From the NCBI RefSeq assembly GCF_041248615.1, contig NZ_CP158426.1: a DNA stretch of 64,000 bases, one strand, 5' to 3'. Positions 15,001 to 18,000 of the stretch are shown here, piece after piece; position 1 is the first letter of the stretch; the number at the start of each line of letters is the position of its first letter. Origin of the DNA: Escherichia coli (GTDB lineage: Bacteria; Pseudomonadota; Gammaproteobacteria; Enterobacterales; Enterobacteriaceae). Position numbers: made by a program.

Positions 15001-18000
15001 CTATGGCTGGATGGGCCGTACCCCAGACTACAAAGCCGCTTTCGGTTGCGCACTGGGCGCGAATCCGGGCTTTTACGGTCAGTTCGAGCAGAACGCCCGT
15101 AACTGGTACACCCGTATTCAGGAAACTGGCCTCTACTTTAACCACGCGATTGTTAACCCACCGATCGATCGTCATTTGCCGACCGATAAAGTGAAAGACG
15201 TTTACATCAAGCTGGAAAAAGAGACTGACGCCGGGATTATCGTCAGCGGTGCGAAAGTGGTTGCCACCAACTCGGCGCTGACTCACTACAACATGATTGG
15301 CTTCGGCTCGGCACAAGTGATGGGCGAAAACCCGGACTTCGCACTGATGTTCGTTGCGCCAATGGATGCCGATGGCGTGAAATTAATCTCCCGCGCCTCT
15401 TATGAGATGGTCGCGGGTGCTACCGGCTCGCCGTACGACTACCCGCTCTCCAGCCGCTTCGATGAGAACGATGCGATTCTGGTGATGGATAACGTGCTGA
15501 TCCCATGGGAAAACGTGCTGATCTACCGCGATTTTGATCGCTGCCGTCGCTGGACGATGGAAGGCGGTTTCGCCCGTATGTATCCGCTGCAAGCCTGTGT
15601 GCGCCTGGCAGTGAAACTCGACTTCATTACGGCACTGCTGAAAAAATCACTCGAATGTACCGGCACCCTGGAGTTCCGTGGTGTGCAGGCCGATCTCGGT
15701 GAAGTGGTGGCGTGGCGCAACACCTTCTGGGCATTGAGTGACTCGATGTGTTCAGAAGCGACGCCGTGGGTCAACGGGGCTTATTTACCGGATCATGCCG
15801 CACTGCAAACCTATCGCGTACTGGCACCAATGGCCTATGCGAAGATCAAAAACATTATCGAACGCAACGTTACCAGTGGCCTGATCTATCTCCCTTCCAG
15901 TGCCCGTGACCTGAACAATCCGCAGATCGACCAGTATCTGGCGAAGTATGTGCGCGGTTCGAATGGTATGGATCACGTCCAGCGCATCAAGATCCTCAAA
16001 CTGATGTGGGACGCCATTGGCAGCGAGTTTGGTGGTCGTCACGAACTGTATGAAATCAACTACTCCGGTAGCCAGGATGAGATTCGCCTGCAATGTCTGC
16101 GCCAGGCACAAAGCTCCGGCAATATGGACAAGATGATGGCGATGGTTGATCGCTGCCTGTCGGAATACGACCAGAACGGCTGGACTGTGCCACACCTGCA
16201 CAACAACGACGATATCAACATGCTGGATAAGCTGCTGAAATAACGCAGCAGGAGGTTAAGATGCAATTAGATGAACAACGCCAGCGCTTTCGTGACGCAA
16301 TGGCCAGCCTGTCGGCAGCGGTAAATATTATCACCACCGAGGGCGACGCCGGACAATGCGGGATTACGGCAACGGCTGTCTGCTCGGTCACGGACACACC
16401 ACCGTCGCTGATGGTGTGCATTAACGCCAACAGTGCGATGAACCCGGTTTTTCAGGGCAACGGCAAGTTGTGCGTCAACGTCCTCAACCATGAGCAGGAA
16501 CTGATGGCACGCCACTTCGCGGGCATGACAGGCATGGCGATGGAAGAGCGTTTTAGCCTCTCATGCTGGCAAAAAGGTCCGCTGGCGCAGCCGGTGCTAA
16601 AAGGTTCGCTGGCCAGTCTTGAAGGTGAGATCCGCGATGTGCAGGCAATTGGCACACATCTGGTGTATCTGGTGGAGATTAAAAACATCATCCTCAGTGC
16701 AGAAGGTCACGGACTTATCTACTTTAAACGCCGTTTCCATCCGGTGATGCTGGAAATGGAAGCTGCGATTTAAGCTCCAGCCCCTTCACGCATTCGTCGA
16801 AGGGGCATTTTTATTGTGATCTCAATCACATATCCACCCGATGAATAATTCTTGCCCAACCGCTCACCGCCATTCCTGACCGCTTACATCCCTAAAATAA
16901 CCACTCAGTTATTTACCTTACTTTACGCGCGCGTAACTCTGGCAACATCACTGCAGGATAGCGGTCAATTTACCTCCTCAAACGCAACGCAAACCTAGAA
17001 CGGCTTCGGCCTATGATTAACAAATTACTCTATGGATTTTGGTTTGCAGGAAGGCAGCAAGTGAGTGAATCCCCGGGAGCTTACAACAGTAAGTGACAGG
17101 GGTGAACGAACGCAGCTGCCGCACCTGTAAGCCAAAAGACGACGAGTAAAATGCCAGGTTTTACTATGGATACGAAAAAACTATTCAAGCACATACCCTG
17201 GGTGATTCTCGGAATCATCGGTGCATTCTGCCTCGCGGTAGTTGCATTACGTCGGGGGGAGCACGTCAGCGCCCTGTGGATCGTGGTCGCCTCTGTGTCG
17301 GTGTATCTGGTGGCTTATCGCTACTACAGTCTGTACATCGCCCAGAAGGTAATGAAACTCGACCCCACGCGCGCGACGCCTGCGGTTATTAACAACGACG
17401 GTCTGAACTACGTTCCGACCAACCGTTACGTGTTGTTTGGTCACCACTTCGCCGCTATCGCCGGTGCTGGTCCGCTGGTTGGTCCGGTTCTCGCCGCGCA
17501 GATGGGCTACCTGCCTGGCACGCTGTGGCTGCTGGCGGGGGTCGTGCTGGCCGGTGCAGTACAGGACTTTATGGTGCTGTTTATCTCCTCTCGCCGTAAC
17601 GGCGCATCTCTCGGTGAGATGATCAAAGAAGAGATGGGACCAGTACCGGGGACTATCGCGCTGTTTGGCTGTTTCTTAATCATGATCATCATCCTCGCCG
17701 TTCTGGCGCTGATTGTGGTTAAAGCCCTGGCCGAAAGTCCGTGGGGTGTCTTCACCGTTTGCTCAACCGTACCGATTGCGCTGTTTATGGGTATCTACAT
17801 GCGCTTTATCCGTCCGGGGCGTGTGGGTGAAGTTTCTGTCATTGGTATCGTGCTGCTGGTTGCCTCTATCTACTTCGGTGGCGTGATTGCACACGATCCG
17901 TACTGGGGTCCGGCACTGACCTTTAAAGACACCACCATTACCTTCGCGCTGATTGGCTATGCGTTTGTTTCCGCACTGCTGCCAGTGTGGCTAATCCTCG

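What the first reader, a model, noticed from the sequence alone, without database searches (positions are those of the whole stretch)
16859..16886. Direct repeat ACCGCTCA-N12-ACCGCTTA upstream of btsT, candidate BtsR operator
The repeat matches the motif I recall for BtsS/BtsR (YehU/YehT)-dependent induction of yjiY/btsT. It lies about 280 bp upstream of the btsT start, implying a long 5' UTR, which is known for this gene to be a post-transcriptional control target. In this strain the operator sits immediately downstream of the hpaC terminator.
Basis: partly seen in the sequence, partly recalled or inferred. Interest (0 to 1): 0.3.

Follow-up and report, generated by a model that had tools for sequence, protein, structure and literature searches.

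The report
BtsR operator upstream of btsT
The repeat is real and belongs to the already known switch that turns on the E. coli pyruvate importer gene btsT, but it is the upstream two boxes of a three-box array, and the long gap to the gene is caused by an inserted ERIC repeat.

Summary
The repeat ACCGCTCA-N12-ACCGCTTA is at 16859-16886 exactly as described, and no shuffle of the window produced a match. From my memory of Kraxenberger et al. 2012 (paper not held), the published YehT/BtsR site is ACC[G/A]CT[C/T]A repeated across a 13-bp spacer. K-12 has GCCGCTCA at box 1.

All 79 Enterobacterales species with enough upstream sequence carry at least three such boxes at a 20/21-bp period upstream of btsT. 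The boxes are conserved and the spacers are not. A CRP box sits a fixed 44 bp upstream of box 1, and a TGnCAnnAT extended -10-like element sits 43-44 nt after box 3.

So this is the known BtsR/CRP-dependent btsT promoter. Box 1 is probably a functional third site.

The "280 bp" distance is inflated by a 125-nt ERIC palindrome (17025-17149) in the leader. K-12 lacks it; 38% of E. coli genomes have it. A perfect CRP box lies between the hpaC terminator and the operator.

Verdict: ordinary, already known, partly mis-registered.

The parts
16261..16773 (+). hpaC, the 4-hydroxyphenylacetate 3-monooxygenase reductase subunit; the gene immediately upstream
   Evidence: ORF. RefSeq annotation of E. 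coli CFSAN018748, which is 100% identical to the window over the 601-nt query (16700-17300).
16780..16815 (+). Terminator-like hairpin (stem 16780-16806) followed by TTTTTATT, downstream of hpaC
   Evidence: RNA fold gives -18 kcal/mol, z = -5.3, and 0 of 200 shuffles fold as well. The simple terminator scan missed it. Function as a terminator is inferred.
16815..16830 (.). cAMP-CRP box TGTGATCTCAATCACA, with both consensus half-sites perfect
   Evidence: Sequence. Conserved in four different E. coli upstream contexts. Lies 44 bp (start to start) upstream of box 1 in 68 of 79 species and 43-45 bp in 77 of 79. CRP dependence of btsT is reported in PMC7730263 and PMC5936718. Binding at this box is inferred.
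16859..16866 (+).
   Evidence: Conserved in 79 species at a mean of about 1.6 bits per position, against at most 0.9 bits at every spacer position tabulated, the only higher flank values being next to M3. Lies inside the K-12 'yjiY YehT bs' oligo of PMC4847170.
16879..16886 (+).
   Evidence: Identical in K-12. About 1.8 bits per position across 79 species.
16900..16907 (+).
   Evidence: Identical in K-12.
16940..16948 (+). Predicted extended -10 element TGgCAACAT (hexamer 16943-16948); predicted transcription start near 16955
   Evidence: A CAnn[A/C]T hexamer sits 43-44 nt after the start of M3 in 72 of 79 species (42-44 nt in 75). TG lies three nt before it in 69 of the 78 species that have such a hexamer. 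The stricter sigma-70 consensus scan found nothing. This is a prediction from conservation; no transcription start data were available.
17025..17149 (+). ERIC (IRU) repeat, an imperfect palindrome inserted in the btsT leader
   Evidence: K-12 is 123 bp shorter here. The ERIC core GTGAATCCCCnGGAGCTTACA is present. Hairpin of -61.6 kcal/mol, z = -8.4. Median of 9 copies per E. coli genome. Present in the btsT leader of 2062 of 5383 genomes.
17166..19316 (+). btsT (yjiY), the pyruvate/H+ symporter; the regulated gene
   Evidence: RefSeq annotation of the identical strain gives a 716-aa protein starting at window position 17166. The ORF list extends it to an in-frame ATG at 17151.

Best explanation
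The finding is the upstream part of the known BtsR (YehT) operator in the btsT (yjiY) promoter of a non-K-12 E. coli.

**The operator.** It consists of three direct ACCRCTYA boxes:
- M1 at 16859-16866
- M2 at 16879-16886
- M3 at 16900-16907

Their starts are 20 and 21 bp apart, about two helical turns, so all three face the same side of the DNA.

**Flanking elements.** A cAMP-CRP box (16815-16830) lies a fixed 44 bp upstream of M1. A weak promoter with an extended -10-like element, TGgCAACAT (16940-16948), follows M3.

**How it most likely works.**
- Established in the literature: extracellular pyruvate is sensed by BtsS, and the LytTR-type regulator BtsR then activates btsT.
- Established for K-12, from my memory of the primary paper: BtsR binds the M2/M3 pair.
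- Inferred here from conservation: a further BtsR protomer occupies M1, extending a cooperative array. With a predicted start near 16955, the box centres fall at about -92.5, -72.5 and -51.5.
- CRP bound at about -132.5 is additionally required. CRP dependence is established; use of this particular box is inferred.
- The transcript would carry a leader of about 211 nt, against about 88 nt in K-12, because a 125-nt ERIC palindrome sits just upstream of the ribosome-binding site.
- CsrA control of BtsT synthesis is reported in the literature. Whether ERIC alters it is unknown.
For: **The repeat in the window**
- Exact repeat at the stated coordinates, with no match in 100 shuffles.
- Third box found.

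**Match to K-12**
- From 16876 onward the window is identical to K-12 through M2, M3 and the promoter.
- It is also identical to the 'yjiY YehT bs' oligonucleotide used by the Jung laboratory (PMC4847170).

**Conservation across species**
- 79 of 79 species with enough upstream sequence carry at least three in-phase boxes. The starts are spaced 20/20 in 52 species and 20/21 in 21. Spacer sequences are unrelated.
- Information content is about 1.6, 1.8 and 1.7 bits per position for M1, M2 and M3. No spacer position next to M1 or M2 exceeds 0.9 bits; only the CATAyA stretch just upstream of M3 and the element just downstream of it score higher.
- All 97 triples with at most 2 mismatches lie within 400 nt upstream of btsT. 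None occurs elsewhere in 550 kb scanned on both strands.
- The CRP box sits at a fixed 44-bp offset and is kept in four different E. coli upstream contexts.
- The extended -10-like element is conserved.

**Literature**
- The 20-21 bp period equals the general LytTR architecture of repeats separated by 11-13 nt (PMC4847170).
- BtsSR, CRP and CsrA control of btsT is documented (PMC5431176; PMC7730263; PMC5936718).
Against: - No binding or expression data exist for this allele.
- The primary paper defining the site (Kraxenberger 2012) could not be read, so I do not know whether M1 was tested and found dispensable. Its abstract, as I recall it, names only two repeats.
- K-12, where regulation works, has a mismatch at the otherwise almost invariant first base of M1.
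- The transcription start, and therefore all positions relative to it, are predictions.
- No canonical -35/-10 pair passes a consensus scan.
- Conservation of M1 could in principle reflect another constraint.
Confidence: 0.8

Rival explanations
1. The operator is the classical two-box site M2-N13-M3 only. M1 is a non-functional relic, or is conserved for an unrelated reason, so half of the reader's repeat is irrelevant.
For: - The published description, as I recall it, names two repeats with a 13-bp spacer.
- K-12 has GCCGCTCA at M1, which falls outside the published degenerate motif, yet K-12 regulates btsT normally.
- LytTR regulators are generally described as binding two repeats (PMC4847170).
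Against: - M1 is as conserved as M3 across 79 species while both spacers are scrambled.
- Its distance to M2 (20 bp in 74 of 79 species) and to the CRP box (43-45 bp in 77 of 79) is fixed.
- PMC4847170 notes that flanking DNA matters for LytTR binding and cites the YehT paper. The laboratory's own YehT oligo extends 25 nt upstream of M2, which includes M1, but only 4 nt beyond M3.
Confidence: 0.2
2. One reading: ACCGCTCA-N12-ACCGCTTA (M1-M2) is itself the BtsR operator as known from K-12.
For: - Both boxes fit ACCRCTYA.
- A 12-nt spacer is the commonest spacing in other species, at both intervals.
Against: - K-12 differs at M1 and in 7 of the 12 spacer bases.
- The published G/A and C/T alternatives and the 13-bp spacer fit M2-M3.
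- This reading ignores M3, which is invariant in E. coli and lies nearest the promoter.
Confidence: 0.05
3. The boxes are recognised by a different protein, for example the paralogous LytTR regulator YpdB/PyrR or the repressor LeuO, rather than BtsR.
For: btsT expression is reported to depend partly on YpdAB and to be repressed by LeuO (PMC5936718).
Against: - The YpdB motif is GGCATTTCAT, which is unrelated in sequence.
- The PyjiY fragment was used as the non-binding control DNA for YpdB in surface plasmon resonance experiments (PMC4847170).
- Salmonella lacks YpdAB yet keeps all three boxes.
Confidence: 0.03

Closest known systems
YehT/BtsR binding site in the E. coli K-12 yjiY (btsT) promoter (Kraxenberger et al. 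2012, J Bacteriol 194:4272; recalled from the abstract, paper not held)
   Same: - Same gene and same promoter.
- M2, the 13-nt spacer, M3 and the downstream promoter are base-for-base identical to K-12 and to the laboratory's YehT oligo.
   Different: - M1 is a perfect ACCGCTCA here, against GCCGCTCA in K-12.
- The M1-M2 spacer differs at 7 of 12 bases.
- The upstream neighbour is hpaC instead of tsr.
- The leader carries an ERIC insertion.
- The published description names two boxes, whereas the comparative data here show three.
General LytTR response-regulator operators (AgrA P2/P3, ComE, PlnC, YpdB at yhjX)
   Same: Direct repeats of about 8-10 nt separated by 11-13 nt, giving a period of about 21 bp, placed just upstream of a weak promoter (PMC4847170).
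   Different: - Three in-phase boxes, and four in some taxa, rather than the usual pair.
- The box sequence is specific to BtsR.
- A CRP box is locked at a fixed distance upstream.
ERIC / IRU (enterobacterial repetitive intergenic consensus; Sharples and Lloyd 1990, Hulton et al. 1991; from my own knowledge)
   Same: - An imperfect palindrome of about 125 nt with the ERIC core.
- Dispersed at a median of 9 copies per E. coli genome.
- Lies in a transcribed intergenic leader.
   Different: Nothing unusual for the family. It simply accounts for the 'long 5' UTR' in this strain.

Membership tests
BtsR (YehT) operator of btsT/yjiY | Direct repeats matching ACC[G/A]CT[C/T]A | tested here: met
   Three exact matches, at 16859, 16879 and 16900.
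BtsR (YehT) operator of btsT/yjiY | 13-bp spacer between the two published repeats | tested here: not met
The 13-nt spacer is between M2 and M3, which lies partly outside the finding's coordinates. For the array taken as a whole the feature is met.
BtsR (YehT) operator of btsT/yjiY | Sequence identity to the K-12 DNA used experimentally | tested here: met
   Window 16876-16911 is identical to K-12 and to the 'yjiY YehT bs' oligo. M1 differs by one base.
BtsR (YehT) operator of btsT/yjiY | Located upstream of a btsT orthologue and conserved there | tested here: met
   btsT starts at 17166. 79 of 79 species have the array, and it is found nowhere else in 550 kb of flanking DNA.
BtsR (YehT) operator of btsT/yjiY | Physical binding by BtsR and btsSR-dependent induction | not testable with these tools
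   Needs EMSA, footprinting or reporter assays.
BtsR (YehT) operator of btsT/yjiY | Cognate btsS/btsR genes present in the genome | not tested
   The yehUT locus is expected far outside this 64-kb window. It is core in E. coli, from my own knowledge.
cAMP-CRP binding site | TGTGA-N6-TCACA palindrome, conserved in position | tested here: met
   Perfect half-sites at 16815-16830. Fixed 44-bp offset from M1 in 68 of 79 species. Conserved in four E. coli contexts. Binding itself is not testable here.
ERIC/IRU repeat | Imperfect palindrome of about 126 bp with the ERIC core, dispersed in many copies, intergenic | tested here: met
   Presence/absence polymorphism against K-12.
Intrinsic terminator (hpaC) | GC-rich hairpin followed by a U-run | tested here: inconclusive
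   A stable hairpin followed by TTTTTATT, but it failed the simple scan. No termination data.

The most novel reading that the evidence does not exclude
The BtsR operator is not a two-box site. It is an obligate phased array of at least three boxes, locked 44 bp from a CRP box throughout the Enterobacterales.

K-12, the strain in which the site was defined, carries a weakened first box (GCCGCTCA, found in about 37% of E. coli genomes). About 41% of genomes, including this window, carry a perfect one. E. coli lineages would therefore differ in the gain or threshold of pyruvate-induced btsT expression.

The linked ERIC insertion in the leader (38% of genomes) could modulate this further at the mRNA level.
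Probability: 0.4. Interest if true: 0.35.

Novelty: already known. Interest (0 to 1): 0.15.

Why it matters
As filed, the finding re-identifies a published operator in another E. coli strain, so it adds little. Three modest points come out of the comparative work.

- **A third box.** It is as conserved as the two published ones across 79 species and is fixed in phase with a CRP box. The accepted two-repeat description, derived from K-12 and its imperfect first box, may therefore be incomplete.
- **Natural promoter variation.** E. coli lineages differ at this box, and in whether an ERIC element sits in the leader. This matters to anyone using PbtsT as a pyruvate biosensor or comparing pyruvate scavenging between strains.
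- **Gene order.** The hpaC-btsT adjacency looks ancestral rather than strain-specific.

Tried and rejected
- **Consensus scans.** The sigma-70 promoter and terminator scans of 16600-17300 found nothing. The hpaC hairpin fails the scan's criteria (the tool does not say which), and the promoter is activator-dependent and weak. Folding and cross-species conservation were used instead.
- **Rfam scan of 16700-17250.** Only two sub-threshold hits (V_AS5 at 30.7 bits against a gathering score of 96, and a plant miRNA). Both lie on the ERIC palindrome, so there is no known RNA family here.
- **Primary literature.** Kraxenberger 2012 (PMC3416263 and its DOI), Behr 2014, Fried 2013, Vilhena 2018 and Thomason 2015 are not held. 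Conway 2014 has no supplement held. Full-text searches found no open paper quoting the motif or an experimental transcription start for btsT. The exact wording of the published motif therefore rests on my memory.
- **Sigma-54 reading of the conserved TGGCA.** Considered and rejected. There is no conserved GC element 12 nt downstream, and LytTR regulators are not sigma-54 activators.
- **A conserved cUUCGg mini-hairpin in the leader.** A version with a 4-bp stem is present in only 9 of 80 loci, so it is not a general feature.
- **A CsrA GGA site at 16956-16960 (CAGGAT).** It is not conserved in Citrobacter or Salmonella, so it was not pursued.

Full report
**Observation.** The degenerate pattern ACCRCTYA-N12-ACCRCTYA, with one mismatch allowed, occurs once in the 64 kb on either strand. 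None of 100 dinucleotide-preserving shuffles gave a match. The feature is therefore a three-box direct-repeat array at 16859-16907, with box starts 20 and 21 bp apart.

**Context.**
- The window is E. coli. Positions 16700-17300 are 100% identical to strain CFSAN018748.
- RefSeq annotates that strain, in order, as hpaA, hpaB, hpaC, btsT (716 aa, start at window 17166), yjiX, yjiA.
- The ORF list extends btsT to an in-frame ATG at 17151.
- Downstream of hpaC (stop at 16773) there is a stable hairpin at 16780-16806 followed by TTTTTATT (-18 kcal/mol, z = -5.3). The simple terminator scan missed it.
- The last T of that run is the first base of a perfect CRP box, TGTGATCTCAATCACA (16815-16830).
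- So the operator is not directly next to the terminator. A CRP site and 28 further bases lie between them.

**Comparison with K-12.**
- Homology detected by megablast to a K-12 derivative starts at 16860.
- The alignment reads GCCGCTCA-ACCGCAAAACTG-ACCGCTTA-CATCCCTAAAATA-ACCACTCA in K-12.
- From 16876 onward the two sequences are identical through M2, M3 and the promoter.
- This same K-12 stretch is the 'yjiY YehT bs' oligonucleotide used by the Jung laboratory (PMC4847170).
- The primary paper is not held. From my memory of its abstract, YehT binds two direct repeats of ACC[G/A]CT[C/T]A separated by a 13-bp spacer.
- The G/A and C/T alternatives are exactly the differences between M2 (ACCGCTTA) and M3 (ACCACTCA), and 13 bp is the M2-M3 spacer.
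- The K-12 first box, GCCGCTCA, does not fit that motif.
Its own refutation criterion is formally met, although the locus identification is right.

**Is the first box real?**
- I fetched btsT loci from 80 species of Enterobacterales. Genera include Escherichia, Salmonella, Citrobacter, Klebsiella, Raoultella, Kluyvera, Kosakonia, Enterobacter, Lelliottia, Pluralibacter, Trabulsiella, Pantoea, Erwinia, Mixta and Rahnella.
- All 79 with enough upstream sequence have at least three in-phase ACCRCTYA boxes. Start-to-start spacings are 20/20 in 52 species and 20/21 in 21. The spacer sequences are unrelated between genera.
- Information content averages about 1.6, 1.8 and 1.7 bits per position for M1, M2 and M3. 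No spacer position tabulated next to M1 or M2 exceeds 0.9 bits; the only higher flank values lie next to M3.
- All 97 triples with at most two mismatches lie within 400 nt upstream of btsT. None occurs elsewhere in 550 kb scanned on both strands.
- A CRP box sits 44 bp (start to start) upstream of M1 in 68 of 79 species, and 43-45 bp in 77 of 79. The two outliers are register shifts in loci that have four boxes.
- Within E. coli, four different upstream contexts (hpa, tsr, an amino-acid deaminase, a hypothetical gene) all keep the CRP box, its distance, and all three boxes. The DNA between them differs.
- This is a strong phylogenetic footprint for M1. It is still inference, not a binding result.
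- PMC4847170 notes that DNA flanking LytTR sites matters for binding and cites the YehT paper. Its YehT oligo extends 25 nt upstream of M2 but only 4 nt beyond M3.

**Promoter.**
- No canonical sigma-70 pair passes the consensus scan, as expected for an activator-dependent promoter.
- Anchoring the 79 sequences on M3 reveals a conserved TGn-CAnnAT element 43-44 nt after the start of M3. The offset is 43-44 in 72 of 79 species, and TG is present in 69 of 78.
- In the window this element is TGgCAACAT at 16940-16948. I read it as an extended -10 and predict a transcription start near 16955.
- That would centre M3, M2, M1 and the CRP box at about -51.5, -72.5, -92.5 and -132.5, all roughly on one face of the helix.
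- These positions are predictions. I found no experimental start-site data.

**Mechanism.**
- Established in the literature:
  - BtsS senses pyruvate, and together with BtsR activates btsT.
  - Expression is abolished in a crp deletion mutant.
  - BtsT synthesis is controlled post-transcriptionally by CsrA.
- Established for K-12, from memory: BtsR binds M2/M3.
- Inferred here:
  - M1 is a third BtsR site that extends a cooperative, same-face array.
  - The box at 16815-16830 is the CRP site responsible for catabolite control.

**The 'long 5' UTR'.**
- The distance from M1 to the ATG is 306 nt here and 183 nt in K-12.
- The difference is a 125-nt imperfect palindrome at 17025-17149. It carries the ERIC core GTGAATCCCCgGGAGCTTACA and folds at -61.6 kcal/mol, z = -8.4.
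- It occurs at a median of 9 copies per E. coli genome.
- It sits in the btsT leader of 2062 of 5383 E. coli genomes, almost exactly those that also have hpaC adjacent (2060).
- The long leader is therefore a lineage-specific ERIC insertion, not an intrinsic property of btsT.
- The predicted leader is about 211 nt here and about 88 nt in K-12.
- The hairpin ends 7 nt before the AGG of the ribosome-binding site. An effect on translation, mRNA stability or CsrA access is conceivable but untested.

**Allele frequencies.**
- The K-12-type first box and its flank occur in 2029 of 5426 genomes.
- The window type (ACCGCTCA with spacer CCGCCATTCCTG) occurs in 2251.
- O55:H7 has ACCGCTCA with the K-12-like spacer.
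- E. albertii shares the G variant.
- Across species, the first base of M1 is A in 77 of 79. The reference strain therefore carries the unusual allele.

**Verdict.** The element is an already known operator and is of low interest as filed. The one mildly new point is the strict conservation of a three-box array phased with CRP.

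Noticed in passing
window 17025-17149; L007 and L016 leaders: An ERIC element occupies the same site and orientation in the btsT leader in E. coli, in E. albertii (near-identical copy) and in Citrobacter portucalensis (a divergent ERIC copy). This implies either an old polymorphism with repeated precise loss or a recurrent insertion hotspot. In E. coli it is almost perfectly linked to the presence of the hpa cluster (2060 against 2062 genomes).
   Followed up: partly
window 16261-16773; L023, L025, L026, L028, L030-L033, L038, L041, L048, L050, L052, L054, L055, L068; L005:2118-2228: hpaC lies directly upstream of btsT in at least 16 other species across Citrobacter, Pseudocitrobacter, Raoultella, Klebsiella, Enterobacter and Lelliottia. 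One Escherichia species keeps only a 37-aa hpaC remnant. The hpaC-btsT adjacency therefore looks ancestral and the K-12 tsr-btsT arrangement derived.
   Followed up: partly
window 16775-16860; L001, L003, L004: The DNA just upstream of the CRP box is a variable junction in E. coli, with at least four different neighbours: hpa, tsr, an amino-acid deaminase/deacylase pair, and a hypothetical gene. The hpa and deaminase contexts share the hairpin arms CCCCTTC/GAAGGGG but have different loops.
   Followed up: partly
L075, L080 (Pantoea/Erwinia); L013, L015, L018, L022 (Citrobacter): Some taxa have a fourth in-phase box. In Pantoea and Erwinia it lies 20 bp downstream of M3, where E. coli has CTTTACGCG. 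In some Citrobacter it is CCCACTCA, 20 bp upstream of M1.
   Followed up: no
window 17002-17011: A small GGCttcgGCC hairpin (cUUCGg tetraloop) lies in the btsT leader. Salmonella and Kluyvera have CAGCttcgGCTG at the equivalent place, but only 9 of 80 loci have a version with a 4-bp stem.
   Followed up: partly
window 17151-17165: An in-frame ATG five codons upstream of the annotated btsT start makes the mechanical ORF 721 aa instead of 716. K-12 has the same ATG.
   Followed up: no
not in the window: yhjX promoter oligo in PMC4847170: The YpdB-site oligo for the paralogous system also contains a weak third repeat, CGTCATTCAT (6 of 10 matches to GGCATTTCAT), one 21-bp period upstream of the two published boxes. 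This hints that a three-box layout may be shared by both pyruvate-sensing LytTR systems (sequence; my own comparison).
   Followed up: no
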